64,000 bases of DNA, taken from Candidatus Harrisonbacteria bacterium (GTDB lineage Bacteria > Patescibacteriota > Minisyncoccia > UBA6257 > 1-14-0-10-44-23). Both the position numbers and the translations under genes were made by a program. Positions within the stretch are counted from its first letter, which is position 1; each line of letters begins with the position of its first letter. The stretch spans positions 39,734 through 103,733 of the forward strand of contig JAHFLF010000002.1 in assembly GCA_023255625.1 (NCBI GenBank). Reading direction: 5' to 3'. The notes below the pieces were generated by a model. The model did not search any database. It was not told the origin of the DNA and saw nothing but the letters and a program-made list of their open reading frames with translations. This document shows positions 42,345 to 59,954 of the stretch, one piece after another.

Positions 42345-42436
42345 ACAGTATTCGCGAACACGCTAATAAACCTAATATGCGTATAAAAACTAACCATTAG
42401 CATATTAGCGTAAATTAGTATGTTAGTGAATACTCT

Positions 42437-43327: not shown

Positions 43328-43369
43328 AATCTTATTCGTATGATTAGAGCGTTCGTATGTTCGTGAACA

Positions 43370-44599: not shown

Positions 44600-44696
44600 A
44601 AACAGGAAAAGCCCGGAGACACTCCATTAAACCCGTCTCAAAGCTCAAGTATTAGTATACCCTACAAAAGCACTTTTGTCCACCAGATGAGTAAAA

Positions 44697-46508
44697 CTAC
44701 CCACGAGCCAGATCCCTATAATCTTCTAACAATTTTGTCAATTTTTCGGCATCTTTTGAAAGCTCCGCCTTACGGATCTCCTCTTGCAGCTCCTTCCGGC
44801 GCAAAGACGCCCCCTCTTTCGAAAGCTCGGCAAAAAGCTGCTCTGTCTCCCCTTTTCCCGGCTCAAACCCGGATTCTAAATAAATCAGGTTGACTATACC
44901 GATAAGCTCCGGAGCCAGTGCGCTATCGCTGATTTGCGTGCCGGTAACCAAATTCTGCGCTAAATATTCCAAAACCGGTTGATACGCACTGGGAAAATAC
45001 TTTTTACTATCCAGCGCCTGCTGCATAACTATTTTATCGCGCAGCGCCAGAGAGAGAATCCGCCGGACTATTCTCTCCAGCCGATTTATGGGCTGATCAA
45101 CGAAAGCCACTGCAGATTTTGGCTCCTCTACCTTTGCGCCGGCCGCCGCCGAGATCTTTACAACATTCATTTCGGCGCTAATCGCCTGCTCCGACAATCC
45201 GGTTCTTGAAGCCAGTAGCTGCAGCCAATGCTGCTGCTCAATAGGACTAGCAATTCCTTTTATTTTTTGCAGCGCCTGCCTAATCCCCTTTTTTAAAATA
45301 GCAAAGTCCCCGCCCCGGCCGCGATCAATTCCGTAATAGTTAAAATAATATTCCATTGCCGGAATTGCTTTACCAATTAATTCGGCGAAGTGGCCCGGCT
45401 TATTCTTTGCAATGTCGGCTGGATCTTTAAGTGTCGGGTCGTTTCCGACGCCTGATGGGTCGGAACCCCGACCTTGCACCGCAAGCGTCGGGGCATACAC
45501 GATCACCTTCGTATTCAAGTCATTTTGCTGCGCCAGATCAATCGTCCGCTCCGCCGCCGCCTTGCCGGCACTGTCGTTGTCAAATGAAAGCACTAAATTT
45601 TCTGCCAGCCGGCGCAGTAGCTTCAAATGCTCATCGGTCAGAGCCGTTCCAGAGGTAGCCACCACATTTTTCACTCCGTCCTGGTAAGTCATTAAAAAAT
45701 CCATCTGCCCCTCGACAAGCACCGCCTGATTCTGTTCGCGCACGCTATTTTTTGTCTTCCAAAACCCGTACAGTAACTTTGATTTCTGAAAAATCGGAGT
45801 TTCCGGCGAATTAACATATTTTCCGACCTCCGGACTTTCTTCGCCTGGTTGGACACGCCCCGTGAAACCAATTACCTTGCCGAAGTGATTATGCAAAGGA
45901 AACATAATCCGGTTTCGGAATCGGTCATAATACATCCCGCGCTCGGTTTTAAAAATAAGTCCGGCTCGTTCAATGTCGGCTGCCGAAAAACCAAGTTTGA
46001 CTAGATGCCGCATCAGATTATCGCTACCCGGCAATGCTACGCCAAGCTCAAATTCGTTGATGGTCTCTTCTTTCAACCCGCGATCTTTCAGATACGCAAG
46101 CGCGGGGTTGCCCGCTGCAGCGGGCAACCCCGCGCCCTCCCACATACTTGCCCGAAAATAATCTTTAGCAATCCGGTTAATCTCGTAAAGCACCTCATAT
46201 TTTTTCTGGTCACTCGTCCCGACTCGCTTTAACTCAACTCCGGCTCGGTCAGCCAAAACTTTCAGCGCCTCGATAAATTCAATATTTTCAAACTGCATCA
46301 AAAATGCAAAAATATCGCCGCCCTTGCCACAACCAAAACAATGCCAAATCTGCCGTTCCGGATTGACCATAAACGACGGCGACTTCTCTTTATGAAAAGG
46401 ACACAGCCCTTTCAAGTTCCGGCCAGCCGGTTTAAGCGCAACATAACCGGCGACAAAATCTTTAACATCTATTTTTTGCTTAATCGCGTCGATAGTTGGG
46501 TCGGCCAT
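44697..46508 (-). CDS. dnaG: DNA primase DnaG
   Basis: CHC2 zinc finger (GLCPFHKEKSPSFMVNPERQIWHCFGCGKGGD); TOPRIM core (VLVEGQMD). Contains two GC-rich palindromic in-frame insertions. Confidence 0.9.
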   Translation of the reverse strand: MADPTIDAIKQKIDVKDFVAGYVALKPAGRNLKGLCPFHKEKSPSFMVNPERQIWHCFGCGKGGDIFAFLMQFENIEFIEALKVLADRAGVELKRVGTSDQKKYEVLYEINRIAKDYFRASMWEGAGLPAAAGNPALAYLKDRGLKEETINEFELGVALPGSDNLMRHLVKLGFSAADIERAGLIFKTERGMYYDRFRNRIMFPLHNHFGKVIGFTGRVQPGEESPEVGKYVNSPETPIFQKSKLLYGFWKTKNSVREQNQAVLVEGQMDFLMTYQDGVKNVVATSGTALTDEHLKLLRRLAENLVLSFDNDSAGKAAAERTIDLAQQNDLNTKVIVYAPTLAVQGRGSDPSGVGNDPTLKDPADIAKNKPGHFAELIGKAIPAMEYYFNYYGIDRGRGGDFAILKKGIRQALQKIKGIASPIEQQHWLQLLASRTGLSEQAISAEMNVVKISAAAGAKVEEPKSAVAFVDQPINRLERIVRRILSLALRDKIVMQQALDSKKYFPSAYQPVLEYLAQNLVTGTQISDSALAPELIGIVNLIYLESGFEPGKGETEQLFAELSKEGASLRRKELQEEIRKAELSKDAEKLTKLLEDYRDLARG

Positions 46509-46618
46509 GCCTTTACTATATCCCTACGCGCCCGCTGGCGCAATAAAAGATTGTAAATTTATGAACCCTGCGCTATGTTGAATCTGTGACGCCTCGCGCG
46601 TCCGGAAAGGAGTCGGTC

Positions 46619-46792
46619 ATGACAAGTTTGCAGTTCTTTGGCGGGATCCTGATTCTGGTGGGAATCCTGCTCTTCCTACTCGGCTACAACCTAGTCGGTA
46701 AGAACGGGGGCGGCGTGATAGCCGGACTCTTCGGCATGCTGTCAGTTGCCTGCGCCGCAATCGGTATGGTGTTTTTCCTTGGGAGGGGCTAA
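46619..46792 (+). CDS. Small hydrophobic protein (57 aa, 2 predicted TM), GC-rich
   Basis: SD GGAAAGGAG 5 nt before the ATG at 46619. MTSLQFFGGILILVGILLFLLGYNLVGKNGGGVIAGLFGMLSVACAAIGMVFFLGRG. Confidence 0.45.
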   Translation: MTSLQFFGGILILVGILLFLLGYNLVGKNGGGVIAGLFGMLSVACAAIGMVFFLGRG

Positions 46793-46944
46793 TGAACCCC
46801 TTGCTAACGATTGCCGGCGTCATCCTGGTTCTCGCTAGTGCCGCTCGTGGCTACAGAGCGGTGTGGCAGGAGGAATACGAGGAGGCGGCTGGATACGCAT
46901 TTCTGTTCCTGGTCGGCGCCTGCTTCCTGGTGGCGGCCCGATGA
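46792..46944 (+). CDS. Small hydrophobic protein (50 aa, 2 TM), translationally coupled
   Basis: ATG overlaps the upstream stop (TAATG). MNPLLTIAGVILVLASAARGYRAVWQEEYEEAAGYAFLFLVGACFLVAAR. Confidence 0.4.
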   Translation: MNPLLTIAGVILVLASAARGYRAVWQEEYEEAAGYAFLFLVGACFLVAAR

Positions 46945-47354
46945 TGAACATCTTCGTGCTCGCACCGTTGTGCATCCTTCCCGTGCTGGTGTTCGGCCTG
47001 ATCATGATCGGGCGCGTGCGAGTTATCTTCCGAACCTGCTACCCGCCCGGGGCAGAGCGCCCACCCTGCATCGTTCGGTGGCCACGACATCGCTTCGAGG
47101 CCTGGTTCTACCTCGCTGTAGGATCAGCGCTGATAGGAACGGCGAGCGCCTGCCTCGTCGGAGTTCTGCTTCTACTCGCAGGCGTCGACCAGGTCCGGCG
47201 AGAAGAGATCTTCTGGTTCCAGAGCGCATGGTGCTGGCTGGCCGGTGGAGGCATCCTGGCGAACCTCTGCGGATTCACCACGCAGCGGTTCGATGGACTC
47301 AATCGTGATTGGACGAAATTCAAGGAGGAACAACATAAGTGCGCGACCAGCTAA
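46941..47354 (+). CDS. Small membrane protein (137 aa, 3-4 TM), translationally coupled (ATGA overlap)
   Basis: MMNIFVLAPLCILPVLVFGLIMIG... The ORF track's longer N-terminus (from 46863) is probably spurious. Confidence 0.4.
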   Translation: MMNIFVLAPLCILPVLVFGLIMIGRVRVIFRTCYPPGAERPPCIVRWPRHRFEAWFYLAVGSALIGTASACLVGVLLLLAGVDQVRREEIFWFQSAWCWLAGGGILANLCGFTTQRFDGLNRDWTKFKEEQHKCATS

Positions 47355-47376
47355 CATCACGCTCGGTCCCGCTTAG

Positions 47377-47425
47377 CTCGAACCCGTCATGCAGACTCGT
47401 CGTCCGCCCGACGGGTTCTGCATTT
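47377..47425 (+). terminator. Hairpin after the small-membrane-protein operon
   Basis: GAACCCGTC ... GACGGGTTC 9-bp stem followed by TGCATTT. Confidence 0.35.
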
Positions 47426-47516
47426 AAAGCTGCCCCTTGCACTTTTTATATATTTCTAGTATTCTATCTCTTATCTTATTCGCATTATTAGCTATCCGCG
47501 TATTAGCGATTACTCT

Positions 47517-47831
47517 ATGAAACACTGTGAAGTTTGCAAAAAGACCTCAATCATGGCCGGCACCAGAATTCTTTTGCGTGGTCACTACAACCCGACCAAC
47601 TGGAGCCGTAAGTACCCGAACCTGCAAAAATCAGTTAATCCGGCCGGCGAAAAAGTTTTTTGCTGCACCGGCTGCATCCGCACCTTTGGCAAGGTAGCAC
47701 GAATGAAAGATAAAAAAGCAAAAGCAATTGTTGCTGCAGCTGCGAAAGCCGCTGCGCCGAAGCCAGTTGCAAAGCCCGCCGCTCCAGCGAAAGTAAAGAA
47801 ACCGAAAGCCGAAAAGAAAGCGGCAAAGTAG
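47517..47831 (+). CDS. rpmB: Ribosomal protein bL28 with Lys/Ala-rich C-terminal tail
   Basis: C-x2-C...RKYPNLQK...C-x2-C pattern like bL28 (KRRFLPNLQ). Tail AAAAKAAAPKPVAKPAAPAKVKKPKAEKKAAK. Upstream TTGCAC-17-TATTCT promoter-like; downstream hairpin ATCCCT/AGGGAT with T-run at 47858-47892. Confidence 0.6.
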   Translation: MKHCEVCKKTSIMAGTRILLRGHYNPTNWSRKYPNLQKSVNPAGEKVFCCTGCIRTFGKVARMKDKKAKAIVAAAAKAAAPKPVAKPAAPAKVKKPKAEKKAAK

Positions 47832-48081
47832 TTGGAAAAAAATCAAAGTAAATAATCAAAATCCCTTTGCCAGACGGCGAGGGATTTTTGAATGCTGCAG
47901 AATACTAAATATCACTTATTATTACGGCCGTGATAATAAGTGATATTTGAATAAAAAATAATTTTAGAAAAAATATTTTTGTTGCGGCCAACCCGTCAAT
48001 AAGCTATTCTGTAGTCAAAACTTAAATTAAAACAGCTTGTCTAACTAATTGAATTCGCGCTGACAAGTCGTAGGCAGATAA

Positions 48082-48152
48082 CGGGATGTGGTGTAGTGGT
48101 AGCACGCGTGGCTGGGGGTCATGCAGTCCGGGTCCGATTCCCGGCATCCCGA
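48082..48152 (+). tRNA. tRNA-Pro (anticodon GGG)
   Basis: Hand-folded: acceptor CGGGATG/CATCCCG, D-arm GTGT-AGTGGTA-GCAC, anticodon stem CGTGG/TCATG (2 G-U) with loop CTGGGGG, T-arm CCGGG-TCCGATT-CCCGG, discriminator A. The GC-rich island starts immediately 3'. Confidence 0.75.
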
Positions 48153-48414
48153 CCTTTAAATAAATTATGACGGGTAAATATATGGCAGACTCAGTTTCGG
48201 CTGATCCCTTCAGGGTTGTCAGCTTTTCGGCTACCTGCTATGTTGGGGTAGCGAGCCAGAAGCTCTGGCTTCTGTCCTCGCTACCCCGTCGTGCAGAATA
48301 GGCAAAAAGCTGCACAACGCGGTGTAAAGATACTTTTGAGACGGGTTCTGGAGTAAGATAAAATTTCGGTTGTTCGGCCACCGAAATTAAAGTGCCGACT
48401 TAGGGAGATTCCCG

Positions 48415-48849
48415 ATGCAGACGCATGAGCCACTTTTTTGTGTCGCTGGCGGATTTCCCGCTGCAACAATCGCCTGTTTCGGTCCGACCGCGACGGCACA
48501 TTTCGTCGAGATGACCGCAGTAGAGGCGGTCGGCTGGATCCGCGCCAAGGACACGGCAACACTGAAGCTCCTTTGGCGATACGGCCCAGAGGAGTCGCTG
48601 CTTCGTGAATTCATGGCTGGTCAAGGCCTGGCCGACCTGCTCAAGGGACGCGATCGCCCAGACCGTCTGAACGGCAGCCGCTTCGAACGGCTCGAGGCGA
48701 TCATCGTCTTTCGCACCGAAAGCGGGGCTGTCCGTATTCGTCTGTTGACAATGGAGCCAACCTGTCCCCTCGACTCTGAAGAAGAGCCGACGGTCGAGGT
48801 TCAACTGCCACCAGAGGAGATCGCTGACATCAACCAACTCGGCGAGTGA
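48415..48849 (+). CDS. Hypothetical protein (GC-rich island)
   Basis: GGGAG SD 8 nt before the ATG. Competing minus-strand ORFs exist in this high-GC stretch, so the frame choice is tentative. Confidence 0.3.
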   Translation: MQTHEPLFCVAGGFPAATIACFGPTATAHFVEMTAVEAVGWIRAKDTATLKLLWRYGPEESLLREFMAGQGLADLLKGRDRPDRLNGSRFERLEAIIVFRTESGAVRIRLLTMEPTCPLDSEEEPTVEVQLPPEEIADINQLGE

Positions 48850-48964
48850 GTAACCTCGCCAACCGCACCAGGGGCCCCGACGCAAATGCGCTCGGGGCCC
48901 TCGGACTATTCGGTCTCAACGCATAAGCTCCGAAGTCCCGCCAAGATGAGATATAATCGGCTAA

Positions 48965-49033
48965 CCCCCAAACTTTTCCCCAAGATGAGCAGGGATACCT
49001 TTTACTGCTCCCTTTGGGGAAAAGTTTGGGGGG
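48965..49033. repeat. Core-conserved palindromic element, copy 1 (+ orientation)
   Basis: Arm ccccaaacttttcccc, core CAAGATGAGCAGGGATACCTTTTACTGCTCCCTTTGG, arm ggggaaaagtttgggg; the arms are exact reverse complements. Confidence 0.6.
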
Positions 49034-49038
49034 CCGGC

Positions 49039-49103
49039 AACCAAAAATTCCCGCCATAGGGAGCAGTAAATCCTATCTGCTCATCTTGACGGGAATTTTG
49101 GGA
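49039..49103. repeat. Core-conserved palindromic element, copy 2 (- orientation, variant core), convergent with copy 1
   Basis: Arms ccaaaaattcccg / cgggaattttgg; core variant CCATAGGGAGCAGTAAATCCTATCTGCTCATCTTG. Confidence 0.55.
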
Positions 49104-49264
49104 TTGCGCTTTTATTAAAAGACTATTTTTGTTTTTTATATTTCTAAATTAAAATCTTAAAAATCACAAAGGGCCGGACGAAGATCGTCACGGCCCTTGT
49201 GCTGTTGCGAGGACACTTACTTCGGGCGGTCCTCGACTTTGCCCGTTGAGCTTGCGCTCCATGT

Positions 49265-49873
49265 CTACCTCCTCCGTCGCGACTGCGACGGGATCTCGTA
49301 GCCGCCGTAGCGGCTGCGAGGCAGGTTCACGCCTGCCGAGCGGTGGGTCCATGTCCCGCCGCCGTTGCCGCTGTTGTACCCGCCGACATATGCCGGCTGA
49401 TACAGCGGCGTAGAAGCCGACGACGCCCCGATCGCGACGCCGGTCGCATATGACTGCGACTGCGTCGTCGGCTGGGAGTCCGGCGGCTCCCATCCGGCCT
49501 CGATGAGGAGCTTCCTCATCTCGTCCGGCGAAACGCCCCCCAGCCCCGTCGTCGCGGCCGCGCTGACCGCAGCCGCGTTGGCAGGCGTCGGCGTCGCGGA
49601 GTGGGCGCGAATCCATTCCTTGATCAAGGAAGGCGGACCGTTGAACTGGTCTCCTCCCTCCTTGATCAATCGCCTCGTGCCGTCGGGGTCGGTCGAGTTC
49701 GTCGACCCCTCCGAGGAATGCCGCGTGAACTCCACGGATTCCTCGGGCTCGTCCGACTCGACGATCTGAACGAACGTCTGCCGGACCTCTTCCATCGGAT
49801 TCACGGCCCGACACCCCGTCGCGACACCCAGTGTCGTCGCGATGACACACAGAACGATGAGGGGGTTCCTCAT
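49265..49873 (-). CDS. Putative lipoprotein (GC-rich island)
   Basis: Likely start MRNPLIVLCVIATTLGVATGC (lipobox ATGC) with GGAGG SD. Ser/Thr/Gly-rich mature region. Confidence 0.5.
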   Translation of the reverse strand: MRNPLIVLCVIATTLGVATGCRAVNPMEEVRQTFVQIVESDEPEESVEFTRHSSEGSTNSTDPDGTRRLIKEGGDQFNGPPSLIKEWIRAHSATPTPANAAAVSAAATTGLGGVSPDEMRKLLIEAGWEPPDSQPTTQSQSYATGVAIGASSASTPLYQPAYVGGYNSGNGGGTWTHRSAGVNLPRSRYGGYEIPSQSRRRR

Positions 49874-49930
49874 GTTCGTCTCCTTCCGGCCCGTAGGCCT
49901 CCCCAACTGCACTATGCGTTGGTGGAATAT

Positions 49931-49959
49931 ATTATACACCTATTGTATCAAAATGTCAA
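49931..49959 (-). promoter_or_regulatory. Consensus sigma70 promoter TTGACA-17-TATAAT driving the 49265..49873 gene
   Basis: Minus-strand read: tttgacattttgatacaataggtgtataat. -35 region motif ttgacattttgat shared with the other three island promoters. Confidence 0.55.
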
Positions 49960-50000
49960 ATCTAACACCAGCGAATTCAGCAAGTAAGTAAAAGTCCCGA

Positions 50001-50070
50001 GCCCCTAAACTTCCCGCCAAAGGGAGCAGTAAAAGGTATCCCTGCTCATCTTGGCGAGAAGTTTAGGGGC
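50001..50070. repeat. Core-conserved palindromic element, copy 3 (- orientation)
   Basis: Arms gcccctaaacttc / gaagtttaggggc flank the exact complement of the copy-1 core. Confidence 0.6.
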
Positions 50071-50085
50071 TCATTTTATTCATAA

Positions 50086-50292
50086 AAATGAAAAGAGCCG
50101 AGTACCAGTGAAGGTATCCTCGGACTCTTTTCGCTACCGGTATTTCTCGGGTCTTCCTGCCCGCGTTCCCACCGGTAGGAACAACTCTCACTGGAACGAA
50201 CTTTCACCTCTCAATCTGGGAATACTCCTTTTCTTCAGCTACTCTCAACCAGATTCCCCTTTGGTTGAGTGGCTGTGGCGCGAAGTTGCGCC
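50086..50292 (-). repeat. 207-bp duplicated element, copy 1, starting 1-2 nt after a stop codon and ending in a hairpin plus U-run
   Basis: About 99% identical to 52250..52456. On the transcribed strand it begins with a GGCGC-AACTTC-GCGCC hairpin, contains CTCAACCA/TGGTTGAG and GTTCC-TACCGGTGG-GAAC hairpins, and ends GAGTCCGAGGATACC..GGTACTCGGCTC + TTTT. The ORF-track proteins 50051..51097 and 52221..52619 on the plus strand just translate it. Confidence 0.6.
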
Positions 50293-50293
50293 G

Positions 50294-50998
50294 TCAGAGC
50301 CGAGCGAGATCATCGACCAAGCTCTTCGCCAAGTCAGTGTCCCGCACATGGGCATTGATCTGCTCGATCATCTTCGAGAGACCAACGTCCGCGATGAGCG
50401 CCGGATAGCTCCGACGCATCGCCTGCCGCCGATCTTCGGCGACCTTGGGCAGAGGCGGCCTGGACGTGAGAGCTGCGAAATAGCTCTCCGCGTCCTTGCC
50501 GAACGCCTCCAAGGCGGCGTTCTGGACCACCTTCACCTTCGCCGCTGCCTGCGCGTCGGCGAAGTCGCGCATCGCCGCCCGGATCAGATCCGGCGTCTTC
50601 GCCTGCTGCTCGGCCAGGTCCTTGACCTGCGCCGCCAGCGCGACGATGGCCGGGTCGACTCTCGGCGCCTTCTCGAGCGCCTCGAGTCGCTTCTCGAGCG
50701 TGCTCTTGTCGGCGAGCTGCTTCGCCAGCCCGGCGATCTGCGCCTGCAGCTGCTTGAAGGACTCGTCGGACACCTGCGATGCGGCACTCTGTGTGCCGGA
50801 CAGTCTGGCGAGACTCGCCTCCGACGCCGCCAGCCGCGTCTCGAGCCGGTTGATCCCCTCGGTCGCCGCGTCGACGCGCCCGGAGACCTCGTCGGCGTGC
50901 TGACTGCCGCCGCCGAACTGTCCGTAGGAAACCCCCCACGCGACGGCGCCCAGGACCGCGACCGCCCCGACCCACAGAAGAATATTCGTGAGCTTCAT
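50294..50998 (-). CDS. Membrane-anchored coiled-coil protein (GC-rich island)
   Basis: Likely start MKLTNILLWVGAVAVLGAVAWGV (TM anchor) after SD GGAGAGGGAGGG; Ala/Gln/Leu-rich heptad-like remainder. Confidence 0.5.
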   Translation of the reverse strand: MKLTNILLWVGAVAVLGAVAWGVSYGQFGGGSQHADEVSGRVDAATEGINRLETRLAASEASLARLSGTQSAASQVSDESFKQLQAQIAGLAKQLADKSTLEKRLEALEKAPRVDPAIVALAAQVKDLAEQQAKTPDLIRAAMRDFADAQAAAKVKVVQNAALEAFGKDAESYFAALTSRPPLPKVAEDRRQAMRRSYPALIADVGLSKMIEQINAHVRDTDLAKSLVDDLARL

Positions 50999-51079
50999 AA
51001 AACCCTCCCTCTCCGACCCTACTTGGGGTACGGACCAACGGCTTCTGGCCGCTGGCAATCGGGCATTTCCGACCTAAAT

Positions 51080-51109
51080 ATTATAGCATATAAATAGCAT
51101 CTCTGTCAA
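51080..51109 (-). promoter_or_regulatory. Consensus sigma70 promoter TTGACA-18-TATAAT driving 50294..50998
   Basis: Minus-strand read: cttgacagagatgctatttatatgctataat. Confidence 0.5.
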
Positions 51110-51234
51110 GCAATCAAATTGTTATAAAAACGGCACGCCCCCAAAGTACAGTTCTTCTGTATCTCCAGGGGCGCATGCTCGGACTGATTTTGCTTGATTC
51201 CGATGAAGTCCGTAGACATCGGAGCAATTGGTGA

Positions 51235-51900
51235 TCACTTCTTGAAGAAGATCACCGGGTGCGGCTTCTCTGCCGGAGCCGGAGTCGCGTGCGGCTGTCG
51301 GCTCGCCCGAATGAAGTTCAGGACGGCGAAGCCGAGCAGGATCACCAGGACGGCGAAGACAATCCGCAGCGGCCAGCTCGTCCTCGGCTGCTGCTCGACG
51401 ACCTCGTCGGACTCCGGCTGCTCGGAGACCTCCGTCCGATCGTCGGCAGCTGGAGCTGCCGGGCGGCCTCGTCGAAAGACCTCCTGGACAGCCAAGGCGT
51501 CTGGCTGCCTTGCAGCCGCAGGGACTTCGTCGACGAAGGTGTCCTGTCTCGAGATCTCGACCGTCGCCATCCTCGGCTCGGCCGACGACAGGTCCAGGTC
51601 GTCCCCCTCGCCGAAGATCAGGTCGTCGGAGGCATCCTCCGAGTCGCCCTTCTTCCCAGCCGAGAGGTCGATGACGCCCGTCTCCTCTTCGGACCGCACG
51701 CCGGTCAGGTCGAGGTTCTCGACGTCCGCCTTGCGGAACTTCATGACGTCGATCTTCTGACCAGGTTTCGCCGGATCATCCTGCTTCTCGCGTAAGGCGC
51801 GGATCTCTCCCTCCGAGACCAGCCGCTTCAGCTTGGGCTCGTCGATGGTGAGGCGCTTCAGGACCTCGTCGAATGTCAAGAACTCGCCGCTCTTGCCCAT
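51235..51900 (-). CDS. HTH (excisionase/MerR-like), acidic linker and C-terminal TM-anchor protein (GC-rich island)
   Basis: Likely start MGKSGEFLTFDEVLKRLTIDEPKLKRLVSEGEIRALRE (HTH_17-like); Asp/Glu-rich middle; C-terminal WPLRIVFAVLVILLGFAVLNFI helix. Confidence 0.45.
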   Translation of the reverse strand: MGKSGEFLTFDEVLKRLTIDEPKLKRLVSEGEIRALREKQDDPAKPGQKIDVMKFRKADVENLDLTGVRSEEETGVIDLSAGKKGDSEDASDDLIFGEGDDLDLSSAEPRMATVEISRQDTFVDEVPAAARQPDALAVQEVFRRGRPAAPAADDRTEVSEQPESDEVVEQQPRTSWPLRIVFAVLVILLGFAVLNFIRASRQPHATPAPAEKPHPVIFFKK

Positions 51901-51980
51901 GATCGTCTCCCTTCCCTCCGTGCAAAAACACAGAGGAACGCAGCACAACGCCGCGTTTAACGGTCATTTCCGTCAAAATT

Positions 51981-52009
51981 AACATAGCATTTTATTATCA
52001 AAATGTCAA
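51981..52009 (-). promoter_or_regulatory. sigma70-like promoter TTGACA-17-TATGTT driving 51235..51900
   Basis: Minus-strand read: tttgacattttgataataaaatgctatgtt. Confidence 0.45.
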
Positions 52010-52049
52010 ATCTAACACCGCGAGTTCAACAAGTAAGTGCAAAGCCGCA

Positions 52050-52118
52050 AACCTAGAGTTTCCCCCAAGATGAGCAGGGATACCTTTTACTGCTCCCTTT
52101 GGGGGAAACTCTAGGTTT
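52050..52118. repeat. Core-conserved palindromic element, copy 4 (+ orientation)
   Basis: Arms aacctagagtttccccc / gggggaaactctaggttt; core identical to copy 1. Confidence 0.6.
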
Positions 52119-52130
52119 GCGATTCGGAAT

Positions 52131-52202
52131 GAAAACTTAAGATTCTCCCCATAGGGAGCACTAAATCCTATGTGCTCATCTTGGGGAGAATCTTAAGTTT
52201 TC
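52131..52202. repeat. Core-conserved palindromic element, copy 5 (- orientation, variant core with compensatory stem change), convergent with copy 4
   Basis: Arms gaaaacttaagattctcccc / ggggagaatcttaagttttc. Inner stem GAGCAC/GTGCTC replaces GAGCAG/CTGCTC. Confidence 0.55.
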
Positions 52203-52249
52203 TGATTAATCAACATCGGTATGTGTTTTGGGTTAAATACATTCAACAA

Positions 52250-52456
52250 AAAAGAAAAGAGCCGAGTACCAGTGAAGGTATCCTCGGACTCTTTTCGCTA
52301 CCGGTATTTTTCGGGTCTTCCTGCCCGCGTTCCCACCGGTAGGAACAACTCTCACTGGAACGAACTTTCACCTCTCAATCTGGGAATACTCCTTTTCTTC
52401 AGCTACTCTCAACCAGATTCCCCTTTGGTTGAGTGGCTGTGGCGCGAAGTTGCGCC
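52250..52456 (-). repeat. 207-bp duplicated element, copy 2, directly after the TAG stop of 52456..53043
   Basis: One mismatch against copy 1 (tatttttcgg vs tatttctcgg). Confidence 0.6.
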
Positions 52457-53043
52457 TACGGGAGCTGGGCGGTCGCCAGCCCGATCAGCCCACTGTGCTT
52501 GGTGGCCACGACGGCCGCCAGACAGGTGGCGTTGTCGGGAAAGGGCTTGCCGCCGTTGCCCACCCTGCGGAACTTCCGCACCAGGAACACCGCTTCGGCG
52601 CTCCTGCCGTCGTCGATGAGCGCCGCGGCCTCGGCGAGCAGCTTGTCCGCGACCGGACCCGCTGCCGGAGCCGACTTCTTCTCGAGGACATCGACCCGCG
52701 CCCCGAGGTCGACGACCTCGTCGGCGATCGCGCCGACGACCGTGGACGATGCCCAGTCCTTGGGGTTGAACCCCGCGGACGACGCCGGCACGGCAGTCTG
52801 CGCGGCGACCGGAGCGGTGGCAGAGGCCGCCGGCGCAGGGGCCGCCACCGCCACCGGCTGGCTCACGACCGGCGTCGGCAGTGTCGCAGCCGGAGCCGCC
52901 ACGACAGCCGCCGGCGTGGCGGCAGTCGCCTGCTGCGGGCACGAACCCGCAGTCGGATCGGCGCTGACGCCGATCCCGAACACGCTCCGACATCCTCCCG
53001 CCGCGAGCACCGCGGCGAGCACGACCAACCTTCGCGTCTGCAT
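52456..53043 (-). CDS. Putative lipoprotein, Ala/Pro-rich (GC-rich island)
   Basis: MQTRRLVVLAAVLAAGGC signal/lipobox; PAAVVAAPAATLPTPVVSQPVAVAAPAPAASATAP linker; SD GGGAGGAG. Confidence 0.5.
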   Translation of the reverse strand: MQTRRLVVLAAVLAAGGCRSVFGIGVSADPTAGSCPQQATAATPAAVVAAPAATLPTPVVSQPVAVAAPAPAASATAPVAAQTAVPASSAGFNPKDWASSTVVGAIADEVVDLGARVDVLEKKSAPAAGPVADKLLAEAAALIDDGRSAEAVFLVRKFRRVGNGGKPFPDNATCLAAVVATKHSGLIGLATAQLP

Positions 53044-53123
53044 CGTTCGATCTCCTCCCGGGGTTTTACCCCGTTCTAATGGACCCGCCCGACCCTCGCT
53101 GGGTCAGTCCGAATCGCCTAAAA

Positions 53124-53152
53124 TATATAGCATATTGCAATAAAAATGTCAA
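53124..53152 (-). promoter_or_regulatory. sigma70-like promoter TTGACA-17-TATATA driving 52456..53043
   Basis: Minus-strand read: tttgacatttttattgcaatatgctatata. Confidence 0.45.
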
Positions 53153-53191
53153 ATATCGTTCTATTGAGTTCAAAACTAGGCCAGCATTTAG

Positions 53192-53263
53192 CCAATGCAA
53201 AATCCGCACCAAGATGAGCAGGGATACCTTTTACTGCTCCCTATGGTGCGGACTTTGCATTGG
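53192..53263. repeat. Core-conserved palindromic element, copy 6 (+ orientation); a degenerate partner lies at about 53271-53300
   Basis: Arms ccaatgcaaaatccgcacc / ggtgcggactttgcattgg (1 mismatch); core CAAGATGAGCAGGGATACCTTTTACTGCTCCCTATGG. Confidence 0.55.
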
Positions 53264-53391
53264 CTGTCTCGCCAAATAGATCTTATCTGCTCACCTTGGG
53301 GAGAAGCTTGGGGCAACTGCTCTAGCCAAAATGACCGCTCTATAGTTCAATATTGCATTTCTGTTAGATTTTCAAATAAAAACTTAAATCT

Positions 53392-53425
53392 CCATGTTAC
53401 AGCGTACTAGTACGCTGTAACATGG
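53392..53425. repeat. Perfect 34-bp palindrome
   Basis: ccatgttacagcgtac-ta-gtacgctgtaacatgg with no flanking T/A run; lies between the island and the leuS terminator. Confidence 0.6.
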
Positions 53426-53463
53426 CTAGGAAATAAACTGAAGTAAAAAATGAGCGACAAGAT

Positions 53464-53520
53464 AAAAAATTACGGGATTTTGGCAATAGAACCCCGTTTG
53501 CCAAAATCCCGTAATTTTTT
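53464..53520 (-). terminator. Bidirectional intrinsic terminator downstream of leuS
   Basis: 23-bp perfect inverted repeat aaaaaattacgggattttggcaa / ttgccaaaatcccgtaatttttt with A/T runs on both sides. Confidence 0.65.
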
Positions 53521-53540
53521 ATTGCCCGCCAAAACAAAAA

Positions 53541-55964
53541 TCAAATAATTAGATTAATCAGCCGGTCTGGCACAAAGATCACTTTCTTCGGAGCGCCGCT
53601 CACCCATTTTTTAATACTTTCTTGCAAAAGAGCCAACTCAATCGCCTCGGCTTGAGTAATCCCCTTTTGTGCCTGTATAGTCCCACGCACCCGGCCGTTC
53701 ACCTGAATAATTAAATCAAAAGTATGCTCGATAATAAGCGAGGGATCAAAGGAGGGCCAGGGCTGTTGGCACAGTAGTAACGAATCGCGAGTAGCGAGTA
53801 GCGAGTTTAATTCTTCAGTGATATGCGGAGCGAAGGGCGACAAAATTTTCAGGAATTTCTGCCAATCTTCATTTGTAATCTGTAATTTGTAATTCGTGAT
53901 TTGATTTATGAATATCATCATCGCAGAAACAGCTGTGTTAAACGACATGCTCTCAATGTCTTCTGAAACTTTTTTGATGGTCTTATGCAGTAAACGAACC
54001 ACTTTGGTATCACTCGTGCTCACCCGTGCCTCACTTGTGCCCACATGTATCCCTATCTTCCATATCTTCTCCAAAAACCTGGCCGTACCTAATACGCCAT
54101 GGTTATCCCACGCCGCCGCTTGATTAAATGGTGCGATAAACAAAATGTAGAGCCGCAGGGCGTCAGCACCAAACTCTTTAACAAAATCATCCGGGTTGAC
54201 AATGTTGCCAACGGACTTGCTCATCTTAGCTCCATCGCTGGCAAGAATAGTCCCCTGCGCCGTTCGCTTTTGATACGGTTCTTTGACCGGTACAAGCCCC
54301 TGATCGTACAAAAATAAATTCCAAAAACGGGAATAAAGTAAATGTAGCGTAACATGCTCCATGCCGCCGTTGTACCAATCCACGGGCAGCCAATAAGATA
54401 GTTTATCAAGTTCCAAGTTCCAAGTTGCAAGTGAGACAGGATTCTTAAAAGCATTCGGACTCAAAAGATACGCCATGTAGTACCACGAAGAACCGGCCCA
54501 GTTGGGCATAGTGTCGGTCTCGCGCTTGGCCGGCCCCTTACACTGCGGGCACTTCGTATTTACCCATTTCGTCATTGTTGAAAGCGGCGACTCGCCGTTG
54601 TCTGTGGGCTGATACTTTTCAACTTTAGGCAGCTTTACGGGTAAATCTTTTTCAGGCACCGCAACCCAGCCGCACTTTGCGCAGTTAATAAGCGGGATCG
54701 GTTCACCCCAATATCGCTGGCGGCTAAAAACCCAGTCACGCAGTTTATAGGTAACTGTTTTTTTGCCACCGGTAATTGCCAATGCTTCATCAAAGGAGAT
54801 GAGCGGCTTATCAACAATCGGCAACTTGAATGTCTCTGCGAAGGCCCGGTCGCGCTCGTCATGTTGCGGCACTGCCATAATAGCTCCGGTTCCATAAGCG
54901 ACGAGCACATAATCGCCTATCCATACCGGGATCTTTTCTTTTGTCGCCGGATTAATAACTTTAATGCCTTTTAGCTCAACTCCGGTTTTTGCTTTCCCTT
55001 CCGAGGATCGGTCAAGATCGCTCTTCAGCTTTGTTTCTGCAATGTACTCTTGAACCTCTTTATAATTTGCAATTTGCAATTTAATTTTCTCGATAATTGA
55101 ATGTTCCGGCGCAAGCACGAGATAGGTCGCTCCGGAAATAGTGTCCGGCCGGGTGGTGAAGACCTTGATTAACTGGATTGCCACGCTACGCCCGCCAGAG
55201 GCGGGCAAGCTCGCAATGACAAGCGGGAATTCAATTTCCGCTCCCTCGCTGCGTCCAATCCAGTTTTCTTGCTGCGCTTTTATCTCCGGCAGATACTCAA
55301 CCTCTTTCAGCCCTTCAAGCAGTTTATCGGCATAAGCCGTAATTTTCAGCATCCATTGCTCCTTCTCACGCTGCTCAACTGCAGTGCCACATCGTTCGCA
55401 CTTGCCGCTAATAACTTCTTCGTTCGCCAGACCAATTTTATCTTTTGGACACCAGTTAATATTGACCCGCGCCTTGTAAGCCAGTCCGGCCTTAAATAAT
55501 TGCAGAAAAATCCACTGCGTCCATTTGTAATACTGCGGATCGGTCGTATTCACCTCGCGACTCCAGTCAAAAGAATACCCAAGCGACTGTAGCTGTTTAC
55601 GAAAATTTGTAGTATTTTGTTTGGTCGCAGTCTGCGGCGGAATACCAGTTTTAATCGCATAATTTTCAGTCGGCAGGCCAAAAGCGTCCCAACCCATGGG
55701 AAAAAGCACATTGTAACCTTCCATACGCCGCTTGCGGGCAAGCACATCAAAAGCCGTATAGGAACGCAGGTGGCCCATATGCATGCCCGCGCCAGATGGG
55801 TATGGAAATTCAACCAGGGCGTAGTACTTCTCCGACGCTTGCGGCGCAAGGTCGGAGCCCCGACCCTCCAGGCGTCGGGGTGGATCATCCTTGGCCTCGA
55901 AAACTTTTTCCGCTGTCCATTTTTTCTGCCACTTTTTTTCTATTTTCTGCGGATCGTAGTTCAT
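53541..55964 (-). CDS. leuS: Leucine--tRNA ligase
   Basis: MNYDPQKIEKKWQKKW start (the ORF-track N-terminus from 56066 is probably spurious). HMGH and KMSKS (AKMSKSVGN) motifs, CP1 editing domain. Contains a GC-rich palindromic in-frame insertion (PPRRLEGRGSDLAPQASE) just before the YPSG motif. Confidence 0.9.
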   Translation of the reverse strand: MNYDPQKIEKKWQKKWTAEKVFEAKDDPPRRLEGRGSDLAPQASEKYYALVEFPYPSGAGMHMGHLRSYTAFDVLARKRRMEGYNVLFPMGWDAFGLPTENYAIKTGIPPQTATKQNTTNFRKQLQSLGYSFDWSREVNTTDPQYYKWTQWIFLQLFKAGLAYKARVNINWCPKDKIGLANEEVISGKCERCGTAVEQREKEQWMLKITAYADKLLEGLKEVEYLPEIKAQQENWIGRSEGAEIEFPLVIASLPASGGRSVAIQLIKVFTTRPDTISGATYLVLAPEHSIIEKIKLQIANYKEVQEYIAETKLKSDLDRSSEGKAKTGVELKGIKVINPATKEKIPVWIGDYVLVAYGTGAIMAVPQHDERDRAFAETFKLPIVDKPLISFDEALAITGGKKTVTYKLRDWVFSRQRYWGEPIPLINCAKCGWVAVPEKDLPVKLPKVEKYQPTDNGESPLSTMTKWVNTKCPQCKGPAKRETDTMPNWAGSSWYYMAYLLSPNAFKNPVSLATWNLELDKLSYWLPVDWYNGGMEHVTLHLLYSRFWNLFLYDQGLVPVKEPYQKRTAQGTILASDGAKMSKSVGNIVNPDDFVKEFGADALRLYILFIAPFNQAAAWDNHGVLGTARFLEKIWKIGIHVGTSEARVSTSDTKVVRLLHKTIKKVSEDIESMSFNTAVSAMMIFINQITNYKLQITNEDWQKFLKILSPFAPHITEELNSLLATRDSLLLCQQPWPSFDPSLIIEHTFDLIIQVNGRVRGTIQAQKGITQAEAIELALLQESIKKWVSGAPKKVIFVPDRLINLII

Positions 55965-56034
55965 GGGAATGAAGTATGGGATAAGAATTATGAAGTATGG
56001 AAAATAAATTCCCGCTGCCCTTAATTCATACTTC

Positions 56035-59840: not shown

Positions 59841-59847
59841 AATAATT

Positions 59848-59919: not shown

Positions 59920-59954
59920 GCCACATACAAATCCTACCCTAATCAGACAAAAAC

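What the first reader, a model, noticed from the sequence alone, without database searches (positions are those of the whole stretch)
45434..55880. GC-rich palindromic elements inserted in-frame inside essential genes: dnaG twice and leuS
Three 36-60-bp, over 70% GC, strongly palindromic segments sit inside AT-rich essential coding sequences without breaking the frame. (a) dnaG 45434-45493: GTCGG..CCGAC / GGTCGGaaccCCGACC / CCCCGAC-cttgcaccgcaag-GTCGGGG, encoding ...QGRGSDPSGVGNDPTLKD... (b) dnaG 46100-46135: a perfect 36-bp palindrome gcgcggggttgcccgc-tgca-gcgggcaaccccgcgc, encoding GAGLPAAAGNPALA. (c) leuS 55832-55880: CCGAC-gcttgcggcgcaag-GTCGG + CCCCGAC-cctccaggc-GTCGGGG, encoding an 18-aa insert PPRRLEGRGSDLAPQASE between the conserved FEAKDD and KYYALVEFPYPSG(HMGH) region. 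Elements (a) and (c) share modules (GGTCGGA(A/G)CCCCGACC ... GCGTCGGGG and CTTGC-nnn-GCAAG) and are in opposite orientations, yet both read out an RGSD-containing peptide because of the palindromic symmetry. This resembles Rickettsia palindromic elements (RPEs), which colonise ORFs and create new peptide segments. A related GTCCCCGAC motif sits at the 3' edge of the GC-rich patch at 40540-40580.
Basis: partly seen in the sequence, partly recalled or inferred. Interest (0 to 1): 0.8.

Follow-up and report, generated by a model that had tools for sequence, protein, structure and literature searches.

The report
Tiny double-hairpin elements inside essential genes
Two of the three palindromes are copies of a roughly 50-base double-hairpin DNA element, scattered through genomes of ultra-small (CPR/Patescibacteria) bacteria, that sits in frame inside essential genes and adds a floppy 17-residue loop to each protein; the third palindrome is a local inverted duplication.

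Summary
All three segments are at the stated places, fold strongly, keep the frame, and are absent from every aligned DnaG or LeuRS relative.

Segments (a) 45443-45493 and (c) 55830-55880 are two 51-nt copies (41/47 identical, opposite orientation) of one element made of two tandem hairpins. Thirteen more copies turned up in other Patescibacteria assemblies. Six of the 15 are in frame in housekeeping genes: dnaG, leuS, fmt, tatD, ybeY and cca. All 226 tested stem positions pair, four of them with compensatory changes. The element is almost stop-free in all six frames.

Deleting exactly the 51 nt restores the relatives' codons (Y-D-D-P-T-L in DnaG, P-K-Y-Y in LeuRS), with no target-site duplication. 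In cca, 2 of 15 alleles at 89% identity or more carry the element and 13 do not.

Segment (b) is different. Its 18-nt arm at 46118-46135 is an inverted copy of the adjacent native 18 nt.

AlphaFold models place all the inserts in low-confidence coil.

The RPE analogy holds for behaviour but not for family membership. The element fails the RPE, MITE, REP and IS200/IS605 definitions where I tested them. No mobilising enzyme was found, and I found no published description.

The parts
45443..45493 (+). Copy (a) of the double-hairpin element, 51 nt. On the + strand it reads hairpin 1 (TTCCGAC-gcctgatgg-GTCGGAA) followed by hairpin 2 (CCCCGAC-CTTGC-acc-GCAAG-C-GTCGGGG). It lies in dnaG, which is on the - strand, and encodes (A)PTLAVQGRGSDPSGVG(N), residues 339-356.
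   Evidence: Covariance model R1 scores 67 bits, E 5e-12. Fold. Absent from 22 relatives. Deleting these 51 nt gives TAT GAC GAC CCG ACA CTT (Y-D-D-P-T-L), against F-D-D-P-T-L in the closest relative. AlphaFold pLDDT is below 50 for residues 340-355, modelled as coil.
55830..55880 (-). Copy (c) of the same element, 51 nt, with hairpin 1 then hairpin 2 read on the - strand, which is the leuS sense strand. It encodes PRRLEGRGSDLAPQASE, residues 63-79 of the 841-aa ORF.
   Evidence: R1 scores 67.9 bits, E 3e-12. It is 41/47 identical to (a) in opposite orientation. Deleting the 51 nt gives D-D-P-K-Y-Y, which restores the P-K-Y-Y of relatives. A 13-residue gap opens against T. thermophilus LeuRS 1h3n. 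pLDDT is below 50 for residues 63-77.
46100..46135 (.). Perfect 36-bp palindrome (b) in dnaG. 46100-46117 is the native sequence (AAGNPA-L). 46118-46135 is an inserted inverted copy of it (GAGLPA), a net gain of 18 nt or 6 codons.
   Evidence: Arms are 100% complementary. Relatives are 6 residues shorter, not 12. Window minus 46118-46135 reads E-A-A-G-N-P-A-L-A-Y-L, against E-P-A-G-A-P-A-L-A-Y-L in the closest relative's DNA. It lies in coil 124-133 between two helices, at the joint between the zinc-finger and polymerase domains.
44697..46508 (-). dnaG (DNA primase, 603 aa), host of (a) and (b).
   Evidence: Pfam Zn_ribbon_DnaG, DNAG_N and Toprim. Homologues.
53541..55964 (-). leuS (leucyl-tRNA synthetase), host of (c) and of a second insert. 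The open frame runs on to 56066, but homologues start at Met35.
   Evidence: Pfam. Alignment A2. The N-terminal 34 residues have pLDDT around 30.
55177..55217 (.). Second in-frame GC-rich imperfect palindrome in leuS (ATTGCGAGCTTGCCCGCC-tct-GGCGGGCGTAGCGTGGCAAT). It encodes IASLPASGGRSVAIQ, a net gain of about 11 codons.
   Evidence: pLDDT is below 50 for residues 287-296. At the same site, relatives P0122, P0126 and P0135 carry other repeat-like peptides (VIPAEAGIQ, VIASEAKQS).
56035..56937 (-). tatD-family hydrolase, host of two further in-frame hairpin inserts.
   Evidence: Alignment A5 with the 75%-identical orthologue in L002. Pfam TatD_DNase on that orthologue.
56437..56476 (.). Copy of a second hairpin family, in tatD (CCCTCC-ttcgctaaagctac-GGAGGG then CAAGCCCGG). 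It adds 10 codons (FAKATEGKPG).
   Evidence: It is 30/36 identical, with a compensatory stem change (G..C to T..A), to an insert in the dnaG of a related genome (L003, AFAEASAGKPG).
56260..56280 (.). Small hairpin CCCGCC-taa-GGCGGG in tatD. It adds 6 codons (PPKAGK).
   Evidence: The motif CCCGCC-NNN-GGCGGG occurs three times in the window, against 0.13 expected for the one-mismatch search that found them.

Best explanation
Segments (a) and (c) are two copies of a small, non-autonomous, selfish DNA element of 47-60 nt, most often 48 or 51 nt.

The element is exactly two tandem hairpins with 7-bp stems built on CCGAC/GTCGG:
- Hairpin 1 has a variable loop.
- Hairpin 2 carries a conserved inner stem, CTTGC-nnn-GCAAG, with a bulged C.

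What is shown:
- It is dispersed at low copy number in Patescibacteria (CPR) genomes of at least two lineages, Saccharibacteria and Paceibacteria-like.
- It inserts precisely, with no target-site duplication at the sites I could check.
- It lands both between genes and inside them.

What is inferred:
- Because it is GC-rich, it has almost no stop codons in any of the six frames. Copies whose length is a multiple of three that land in a tolerant surface loop therefore leave an essential protein working, and they persist.
- The result is a new 16-17-residue disordered loop whose sequence depends only on orientation and frame.
- Selection acts on the DNA or single-strand hairpin, not on the peptide.
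- The mobilising activity is not identified. No target-site duplication plus hairpin ends points to a single-strand, hairpin-recognising mechanism (HUH/Y1-type or copy-choice) rather than a DDE transposase.

Segment (b) has a different origin. It is a one-off templated inverted duplication (strand switch or snap-back during replication or repair) that copied 18 nt of native dnaG in inverted orientation next to itself. That created a perfect coding palindrome and six extra residues in an interdomain linker.
For: Family and structure
- (a) and (c) are 41/47 identical.
- A scan of one genome per species for hairpin 2 found 6 more copies in 5 assemblies. Three are labelled Saccharibacteria or Patescibacteria.
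- A metagenome scan added 6 distinct loci, one of them from a Paceibacterota assembly.
- Hairpin 1 was in neither search pattern, yet it is present in every copy.
- On 12 copies, 226 of 226 stem cells pair. Four pairs outside the searched-for bases show changes on both sides (14 cells). 0 of 500 shuffles reach this, and slid controls drop to 29-49% paired.

Coding behaviour
- There are 7 stops in 78 frames.
- Six copies are in frame: dnaG, leuS, fmt, tatD, ybeY and cca.
- These copies use three different reading frames (PTLAxQGR, RRLxSKVG, PRRLEGRGSD). So the peptide is not what is conserved.

Precise insertion
- L061 holds the same 25-nt tRNA 5' fragment both intact (CTACCA|TTGAGC) and filled with exactly the 52-nt element. 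There is no duplication.
- Removing 51 nt restores the relatives' codons in dnaG and leuS.

Mobility
- 2 of 15 cca alleles at 89% identity or more carry the element and 13 lack it.
- None of 240 DnaG and LeuRS homologues other than the window's own carries it.
- None is found in 52 kb of syntenic relatives.

Tolerance
- The inserts fall in pLDDT<50 coil.

Segment (b)
-.
Against: - No transposase, HUH/Y1 or integrase domain was found among about 50 window ORFs, so the mobilising step is inferred.
- Only 15 copies are in hand, and both large scans required an exact hairpin 2. The apparent conservation of that hairpin and the restriction to CPR are partly built in by the search.
- Boundaries and absence of a target-site duplication rest on three clean sites. 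The cca filled/empty pair differs by 54 nt, not 48-49, and its empty site (TCCTGAC) resembles an element arm. The dnaG site also has CCCGAC 4 nt away. A homology-guided or duplication-generating mechanism is therefore not excluded.
- Flanks show no shared tetranucleotide, as IS200/IS605 transposition would need.
- Translation of the inserts is inferred from intact frames, not observed.
- Two of the host assemblies are labelled only 'bacterium'.
Confidence: 0.75

Rival explanations
1. The double hairpin is a functional structured RNA or DNA signal of Patescibacteria, such as a processing site, a protein-binding site or a terminator-like element, kept by selection. The copies inside genes would then be incidental or regulatory, not parasitic.
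For: - Stems pair perfectly, with compensatory changes.
- The stem sequence, not only the pairing, is the same across distant lineages, while the loops vary.
- Several copies lie just upstream or downstream of genes or next to tRNA sequences (L043 before mraZ, L051 before a GIY-YIG-like ORF, L052 and L061 by tRNA).
- The L040 copy is followed by TTTTTT.
Against: - No Rfam family matches (best E 1.6).
- Copies sit in both orientations, in unrelated genes and at unrelated positions.
- There is no consistent neighbour.
- Close cca alleles differ by presence or absence.
- A terminator inside dnaG or leuS would be harmful, and the window's copies have no T-run.
- Conservation of hairpin 2 was imposed by the search patterns.
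Confidence: 0.1
2. All of the palindromes, including (a) and (c), arose independently on the spot by template switching or snap-back synthesis on native sequence, as (b) did. No mobile family is involved.
For: - (b) is demonstrably such an event.
- The native dnaG and cca target sites contain a CCNGAC motif close to the insertion point.
- The tatD insert at 56437-56476 pairs with adjacent native codons.
Against: - (a) and (c) share 41/47 nt including loop sequence.
- The same 24-nt hairpin 2 and the same two-hairpin plan recur in at least 13 other places in other genomes and genes.
- Independent local events cannot produce that.
- The covariance model scores all copies at 45-76 bits, while the best other hit in the window scores 14 bits.
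Confidence: 0.03
3. The inserts are kept because the peptides are useful. For example, an RGSD/RGD-like loop could have been selected in primase and LeuRS.
For: Both window copies read out G-R-G-S-D. The inserts sit on predicted exposed loops, and (a) lies a few residues before the Toprim DPAD motif.
Against: - The six in-frame copies use three different frames and give unrelated peptides.
- The nucleotide sequence and the pairing are what is conserved.
- Intergenic copies are as well conserved as the coding ones.
- The inserted segments are predicted disordered.
- The shared RGSD follows from the near-symmetry of the element.
Confidence: 0.05
4. The inserts are assembly or amplification artefacts, for example chimeric inverted joins.
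For: Perfect palindromes such as (b) can be produced by displacement amplification. The genome is a metagenome assembly.
Against: - A second contig in ENA (k141_6480314) is identical to the window over 15,591 nt, including (a) and (b).
- All inserts keep the frame of essential genes.
- Family members occur in many independent samples and assemblers.
Confidence: 0.02

Closest known systems
Rickettsia palindromic elements (RPE; Ogata et al. 2000, as summarised in PMC2229807 and PMC10969869)
   Same: - A dispersed palindromic repeat with open frames.
- It is found between genes and fused in frame inside conserved housekeeping genes.
- It also occurs in RNA-gene context: RPEs in tmRNA and RNase P RNA, and here next to or inside tRNA fragments.
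- The inserts are tolerated in exposed parts of the protein.
- The hosts have reduced genomes and depend on other cells.
   Different: - RPEs are 105-146 bp and fold into one long stem-loop with terminal inverted repeats. They are specific to Rickettsia.
- This element is 47-60 nt, forms two short tandem hairpins, is 60-76% GC, and lives in Patescibacteria.
REP/BIME elements and their RAYT (Y1/HUH) transposases (own knowledge; mentioned in PMC3184786)
   Same: Short GC-rich imperfect palindromes, often in pairs, with no target-site duplication. They are thought to move as single-strand hairpins.
   Different: REPs are extragenic, occur at high copy number, and carry a conserved GTAG-like tetranucleotide at the foot of the hairpin. 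Here 6 of 15 copies are intragenic, there are only 2 copies per 64 kb, and no conserved flanking tetranucleotide is present. No RAYT was found in the window.
IS200/IS605-derived palindrome-associated elements and classical MITEs
   Same: Both are small and non-autonomous with hairpin or inverted-repeat ends. Insertion without duplication matches IS200/IS605.
   Different: IS200/IS605 inserts 3' of a fixed tetra- or pentanucleotide, which is not seen here. Classical MITEs are AT-rich, usually end in TA and make target-site duplications (PMC2229807), and neither is seen here. No related full-length insertion sequence was found.
Coding palindromes in Nematomorpha mitochondrial genes (PMC6649704), and quasi-palindrome template-switch mutations (own knowledge)
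   Same: This is the analogue for (b): a perfect inverted repeat embedded in a protein-coding gene, with both arms translated.
   Different: The Nematomorpha repeats are numerous, reach 284 bp and cover conserved protein regions. (b) is a single 36-bp case, and one of its arms is extra sequence in a linker.
Double-hairpin elements of Allomyces mitochondria and GC clusters of yeast mitochondria (own knowledge, not checked here)
   Same: Short GC-rich mobile elements made of two hairpins. They occur in a lower-GC genome, sometimes in frame within coding regions.
   Different: These are organellar and eukaryotic, and their sequences are unrelated as far as I recall. I made no test.

Membership tests
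Rickettsia palindromic elements (RPE) | Length 105-146 bp, folding as one long stem-loop with terminal inverted repeats | tested here: not met
   Copies are 47-60 nt and fold as two separate 7-bp-stem hairpins. RPE dimensions are taken from PMC2229807.
Rickettsia palindromic elements (RPE) | Repeated family found in frame inside unrelated conserved protein genes as well as between genes | tested here: met
   Six copies are in frame (dnaG, leuS, fmt, tatD, ybeY, cca). Nine are non-coding or in tRNA context.
Rickettsia palindromic elements (RPE) | Sequence similarity to one of the RPE families; host in Rickettsia or Rickettsiales | not testable with these tools
   No RPE sequences were available. 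The hosts here are Patescibacteria.
Rickettsia palindromic elements (RPE) | Insert lies in an exposed, structurally tolerant part of the host protein | tested here: met
   AlphaFold gives DnaG 340-355 and LeuRS 63-77 pLDDT below 50, modelled as coil between regular elements. Gaps open against the solved DnaG and LeuRS structures.
MITE (miniature inverted-repeat transposable element) | Target-site duplication flanking the element | tested here: not met
   The L061 filled and intact tRNA fragments show no duplication. Exact 51-nt deletion restores the native codons in dnaG and leuS. The cca pair is ambiguous, with 5-6 extra nt.
MITE (miniature inverted-repeat transposable element) | Terminal inverted repeats matching a full-length insertion sequence in the same genomes | tested here: inconclusive
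   The termini are inverted (CCCCGAC...GTCGGRG). No transposase was found among about 50 window ORFs. The IS1595 in relative L002 carries no copy. Whole genomes were not available.
REP/BIME with RAYT | Extragenic location, high copy number, and a conserved GTAG-type tetranucleotide next to the hairpin | tested here: not met
   Six of 15 copies are intragenic. There are 2 copies in 64 kb and 0 in 52 kb of relatives. The flanks are variable.
IS200/IS605-type hairpin elements | Hairpin ends and insertion without duplication | tested here: met
IS200/IS605-type hairpin elements | Insertion always 3' of one conserved tetra- or pentanucleotide; a Y1 transposase in the genome | tested here: not met
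   The left flanks end in CGT, CCA, CTG, TTG, CTT, CCG, TAA, CAG, CAC and so on. No Y1_Tnp hit was found in the window, but the rest of the genome was not seen.
Templated inverted duplication (for segment b) | Net insertion equals one arm; the other arm is native sequence; the arms are perfectly complementary and abut | tested here: met
   Arms are 18 nt, 100% complementary, with 0 spacing. Relatives are shorter by 6 codons. The window minus 46118-46135 is collinear with the closest relative's DNA.
Rfam RNA families | Match to a curated covariance model | tested here: not met
   Only four tRNAs reach the gathering score in the window. The best E-value on the element is 1.6.

The most novel reading that the evidence does not exclude
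A previously undescribed family of about 50-nt double-hairpin mobile elements is shared across distant Patescibacteria lineages. It moves precisely, without target duplication, through a single-strand hairpin intermediate and an enzyme or replication mechanism not yet recognised. Together with at least one other hairpin family and with spontaneous inverted duplications, it keeps seeding new disordered loops into essential proteins and tRNA-gene regions of these ultra-small genomes. Three neighbouring genes in this window already carry six such inserts.
Probability: 0.45. Interest if true: 0.7.

Novelty: new variant of a known kind. Interest (0 to 1): 0.58.

Why it matters
Patescibacteria have some of the smallest and most streamlined bacterial genomes. 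Even so, three adjacent essential genes here (dnaG, leuS, tatD) carry six in-frame hairpin inserts.

This shows that selfish palindromic DNA invading coding sequence, so far best known from Rickettsia, also operates in this large uncultivated radiation. It does so with an element a third of the size and of different architecture.

Practical consequences:
- It explains odd low-complexity peptides and length variation in CPR proteins.
- It warns annotators and structure predictors about such segments.
- It offers presence/absence markers for strain typing.
- The element is tiny, its ends are exactly defined and it leaves no target duplication, so it is a clean substrate for finding the activity that moves hairpin DNA in organisms with almost no known transposases.
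- Segment (b) is a clear natural example of a template-switch event creating new coding sequence.

Tried and rejected
- **Loose architecture pattern in viral contigs.** CCGAC-N-GTCGG-NNNN-CCGAC-N-GTCGG gave 34 hits. All were GC-rich phage sequence or tandem arrays with no similarity to the element, so I dropped the pattern.
- **Exact hairpin 2 in viral contigs.** No hits.
- **Metagenome hits.** Thirteen of the 21 loci were one unrelated GC-rich coding sequence without hairpin 1. I excluded them.
- **Peptide profile search.** I built a profile from the six reading frames of the element and searched the protein collection to list host proteins.
- **Rfam.** No family matched at gathering or E-value thresholds.
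- **Covariance model on the window and relatives.** No further copies in the window or in the syntenic relatives. The 40532-40574 patch is not a relative.
- **tRNA restoration.** Excising the element in silico from L052 and L061 did not give an ARAGORN-detectable tRNA, so I do not claim 'inserted in a functional tRNA gene'.
- **Transposase search.** I looked for a transposase, HUH or integrase domain among about 50 window ORFs. None was found.
- **Literature.** Searches for the element's sequence, its peptides, or palindromic or MITE-type elements in Patescibacteria found no description.
- **Conserved target or duplication.** I looked in the flanks of all copies and found none. A CCNGAC motif lies near two of four known target sites, which I leave as a lead.

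Full report
**Setting**

The window is 47.8% GC overall, and 46.7% outside a 5-kb island of about 60% GC. Nearly all genes lie on the minus strand.

The ORF at 44697-46508 (-) is DNA primase (zinc ribbon, DNAG_N, Toprim). The ORF at 53541-56066 (-) is leucyl-tRNA synthetase. Their closest database relatives are 72% and 71% identical. More distant relatives are named Paceibacterota, Harrisonbacteria, Wolfebacteria or 'Patescibacteria group'. So the organism belongs to the Candidate Phyla Radiation.

A second public contig (ENA k141_6480314) matches window 34697-50287 with no mismatch.

**Checking the observation**

All three segments are present as described.

Folded as single-stranded DNA, (a) and (c) each form two adjacent hairpins. 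dG is -20 to -22 kcal/mol, z is -4.1 to -4.7, and none of 200 shuffles folds as well. (b) forms one 16-18-bp hairpin, with dG -25.8 and z -6.4.

(b) is a perfect palindrome with 18-nt arms and no spacer.

The shared 16-mer GGTCGGARCCCCGACC occurs exactly at (a) and (c), against 0.05 expected.

(a) on the plus strand aligns without gaps to (c) on the minus strand at 41 of 47 positions. The same-strand alignment is much poorer.

Corrections:
- (a) is 68% GC.
- The host genes are 48-49% GC, not AT-rich.
- The patch at 40532-40574 is a separate intergenic hairpin. It is not recognised by the element's covariance model.

**Are they lineage-specific insertions?**

- In an alignment of 23 primases, none of the 22 relatives has the 17 residues APTLAVQGRGSDPSGVG or the six residues GAGLPA.
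- In 20 LeuRS sequences, the 17 residues PRRLEGRGSDLAPQASE are unique to the window.
- A regular-expression scan of all 240 retrieved homologues found the element's peptides only in the window's own two proteins.

**A dispersed family**

I scanned one genome per bacterial and archaeal species for hairpin 2 (CCGACCTTGCNNNGCAAGCGTCGG). This returned five contigs with six matches. Two are labelled Saccharibacteria, one 'Patescibacteria group' and two only 'bacterium'.

Every match is preceded by a hairpin 1 of the form N1-3-CCGAC-loop-GTCGG-N1-3. That hairpin was not part of the query.

A metagenome scan with a shifted pattern added six more distinct loci. One is attributable to Paceibacterota. 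It also returned 13 unrelated GC-rich coding hits, which I discarded.

On an alignment of 12 copies:
- All 226 stem cells form standard pairs.
- Four stem positions that neither pattern constrained show changes on both sides: CG/UA/GC/AU at the base of hairpin 1, and CC-GG, CT-AG or TC-GA at the base of hairpin 2.
- 0 of 500 shuffles reach the observed covariation.
- Sliding the partners drops pairing to 29-49%.

A covariance model built from this alignment scores all copies at 45-76 bits. In the window it finds only (a) and (c); the next best hit scores 14 bits. It finds nothing in 52 kb of the syntenic regions of three close relatives.

No Rfam family matches, and no viral contig carries hairpin 2.

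**Where the copies sit**

| Location | Copies |
|---|---|
| In frame in housekeeping genes | dnaG and leuS (window), fmt (L041, STPTLASQGRSPDQSVGA), tatD (L042, SRRLQSKVGTPTGTSGQ), ybeY (L040, PRRLQSKVGVPTKASG), CCA-adding enzyme (L063, SRRLPSKVGTPTESVGA) |
| Intergenic | Upstream of a glmU-like gene (two copies), upstream of mraZ, upstream of a GIY-YIG-like ORF, and two others |
| tRNA-derived sequence | L052, L061 |

The element is almost free of stop codons, with 7 stops in 78 frames. The six in-frame copies use three different frames. So nucleotide sequence and pairing are conserved, and the peptide is not.

**Exact boundaries**

In L061 the same tRNA 5' fragment occurs intact (CTACCA|TTGAGCTACGCCGGAATC) and interrupted at that point by exactly CCCCGAC...GTCGGAG (52 nt). 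Nothing is duplicated or lost.

Applying the same boundaries to the window:
- Deleting 45443-45493 turns TAT G[51 nt]AC GAC CCG ACA CTT into Y-D-D-P-T-L-K-D-P. The closest relative reads F-D-D-P-T-L-K-D-P.
- Deleting 55830-55880 gives D-D-P-K-Y-Y, which restores the P-K-Y-Y of relatives.

So the element is precisely the two 7-bp-stem hairpins. At these three sites there is no target-site duplication.

By these boundaries, in-frame copies are 51, 51, 48, 48 and 48 nt (49 nt in cca). Non-coding copies include 47, 49, 52, 58 and 60 nt. This is what a frame filter would leave.

**Mobility**

The 90%-identity cluster of the L063 CCA-adding enzyme holds 15 readable members. Two carry the insert and 13 read KIFP-DSFYENE.

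A nucleotide comparison of a filled and an empty allele (89% identical) shows the element plus 5-6 further bases. The empty site, TTTTTCCTGAC, resembles an element arm. The dnaG target also has CCCGAC 4 nt from the insertion point. The leuS and L061 targets do not.

I therefore leave open whether microhomology plays a part.

The window's own cca gene (58293-59930) lacks the element.

**Structural placement**

AlphaFold2 models built on the homologue alignments gave mean pLDDT 81 for DnaG and 78.5 for LeuRS.

| Insert | Residues | Model |
|---|---|---|
| (a) | DnaG 340-355 | pLDDT below 50, coil between strand 332-335 and helix 363-369, just before the Toprim DPAD motif |
| (b) | DnaG 124-133 | Coil between helices, at the zinc-finger/polymerase junction |
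| (c) | LeuRS 63-77 | pLDDT below 50, before the first strand of the catalytic fold |
| Second leuS insert | LeuRS 287-296 | pLDDT below 50 |

Alignments to solved structures show gaps at the same places.

**Segment (b) is a different thing**

Relatives are shorter by six residues, not twelve. Codon alignment with four relatives, including the closest (L066), shows the following:
- Window minus 46118-46135 reads GAG GCA GCG GGC AAC CCC GCG CTT GCG TAT (E-A-A-G-N-P-A-L-A-Y).
- The relative reads GAG CCG GCT GGT GCG CCT GCG CTC GCG TAT (E-P-A-G-A-P-A-L-A-Y).

The extra 18 nt are the exact reverse complement of the adjacent native 18 nt. This is the signature of a templated inverted duplication (strand switch or snap-back), not of an inserted 36-nt element. 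It is not detected by model R1.

**More of the same nearby**

- leuS carries a second GC-rich imperfect palindrome (55177-55217, about +11 codons). At that site three relatives carry other repeat-like peptides.
- tatD (56035-56937) has two inserts relative to its 75%-identical orthologue.
- One of them, 56437-56476 (+10 codons, FAKATEGKPG), is 30/36 identical, with a compensatory stem change, to an insert in the dnaG of a related genome (L003). This defines a second dispersed hairpin family.
- The other is a CCCGCC-taa-GGCGGG hairpin (+6 codons). That motif occurs three times in the window, against 0.13 expected for the one-mismatch search.

Three adjacent essential genes therefore carry six in-frame hairpin inserts.

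**Mechanism**

Shown:
- A repeated, structurally constrained, precisely bounded element.
- Insertion without duplication at three sites.
- Filled and empty alleles.
- Frames preserved.
- Placement in predicted disordered loops.

Inferred:
- The element is selfish DNA that moves as a folded single strand.
- In-frame copies survive by being stop-free, a multiple of three in length, and in tolerant loops.

Unknown: the mobilising activity. No transposase, HUH or integrase domain was found among about 50 ORFs of the window. The flanks carry no shared tetranucleotide, which argues against a standard IS200/IS605 mechanism. The missing duplication argues against a DDE-type MITE.

**Comparison with known elements**

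The behaviour matches Rickettsia palindromic elements: in-frame fusions in conserved genes, copies in RNA-gene context, and tolerated surface inserts (PMC2229807, PMC10969869).

It is not an RPE by size, fold, composition or host. It also fails the tested defining features of MITEs, REP/BIME and IS200/IS605 derivatives.

(b) is closest to the coding palindromes described in Nematomorpha mitochondria (PMC6649704) and to template-switch mutations.

Searches of the paper library for the sequence, the peptides, or palindromic or MITE-type elements in Patescibacteria found no description.

**Verdict**

The finding is real. It is a previously undescribed small double-hairpin family in a different phylum. 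(b) is a local inverted duplication.

Limits: only 15 copies are in hand, the search patterns fixed hairpin 2, whole genomes were not available, and there is no expression evidence.

Noticed in passing
window 48965-49032, 49049-49096, 52046-52121, 52131-52202, 53190-53265: Five long hairpins in alternating orientation. They share an invariant apex (CCAAGATGAGCA..GATA..TTTAC/GTGCTCCCTwTGG). Their outer stems differ completely between copies yet stay complementary. They punctuate a 5-kb island of about 60% GC whose ORFs have no Pfam hit. The island lies between tRNA-Pro (48082-48154) and leuS. It looks like a cassette-like array or a mobile island. No match in viral contigs.
   Followed up: partly
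window 50089-50136 and 52253-52300; end of the ENA contig at window 50287: A 48-nt direct repeat sits at the start of two island ORFs (50051-51097 and 52221-52619). The second public assembly of this genome breaks at 50287, inside the island. The island may be repeated or strain-variable.
   Followed up: partly
window 56437-56476 and L003 about 10650-10690 (dnaG of a related genome): A second dispersed in-frame hairpin family (CCCKCC-TTCGCTRAAGCTWC-GGMGGG-yAAr-CCCGG; peptide [SA]FA[KE]A[TS][EA]GKPG). It occurs in tatD here and in dnaG of a relative, 30/36 identical with a compensatory stem change.
   Followed up: partly
window 16381-16395, 55191-55205, 56264-56278: The small hairpin motif CCCGCC-NNN-GGCGGG occurs three times, against 0.13 expected for the one-mismatch search. 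Two copies are in-frame inserts (leuS, tatD) and one lies just after tRNA-Ser.
   Followed up: partly
LeuRS alignment A2, columns about 290-330 (window 55177-55217): The start of the LeuRS editing domain is a hot spot. Four of 20 aligned relatives carry different repeat-like peptides there: VIASEAKQS..., VIPAEAGIQ (twice), and the window's IASLPASGGRSVAIQ.
   Followed up: no
window 40532-40574: A strong GC-rich hairpin (20-nt arms, dG -20.9) lies between the 3' ends of a convergent HTH gene and alaS. It contains GTCCCCGAC but is not a member of the double-hairpin family. It has no T-run, so the simple terminator scan does not call it.
   Followed up: yes
L061 about 1230-1700: Three tandem copies of the first 22-25 nt of a tRNA gene, one of them interrupted by the element. 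The full tRNA-like sequence that follows appears to carry a long insert after its anticodon loop, which may be a group I intron. ARAGORN calls no tRNA there.
   Followed up: partly
L052 14670-14916: The element lies between tRNA-Ala(tgc) and a sequence that looks like the 3' two-thirds of a tRNA-Cys (D-arm, GCA anticodon arm, T-arm, CCA). The 5' part of that tRNA is missing or disrupted.
   Followed up: partly
window 55965-56066: The leuS open frame extends 34 codons upstream of the start used by all homologues and overlaps the end of tatD. The extension has pLDDT around 30, so it is probably not translated.
   Followed up: yes
window 23462-23495, 47907-47948, 53392-53425, 53462-53522: Four perfect or near-perfect intergenic hairpins with arms of 16-25 nt. 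Some are AT-rich. They are possible terminators or further repeat families.
   Followed up: no
window 57616-58191: A 191-aa ORF with a Cas2-like/PaaX central domain. No CRISPR array or other cas genes are nearby in the window.
   Followed up: no
L041 1938-3002 (fmt): Besides the double-hairpin element, this fmt gene carries a second low-complexity insert (SPPPSLPPSSSAEATADRQEGGKDGGAE). It looks like another translated repeat.
   Followed up: no
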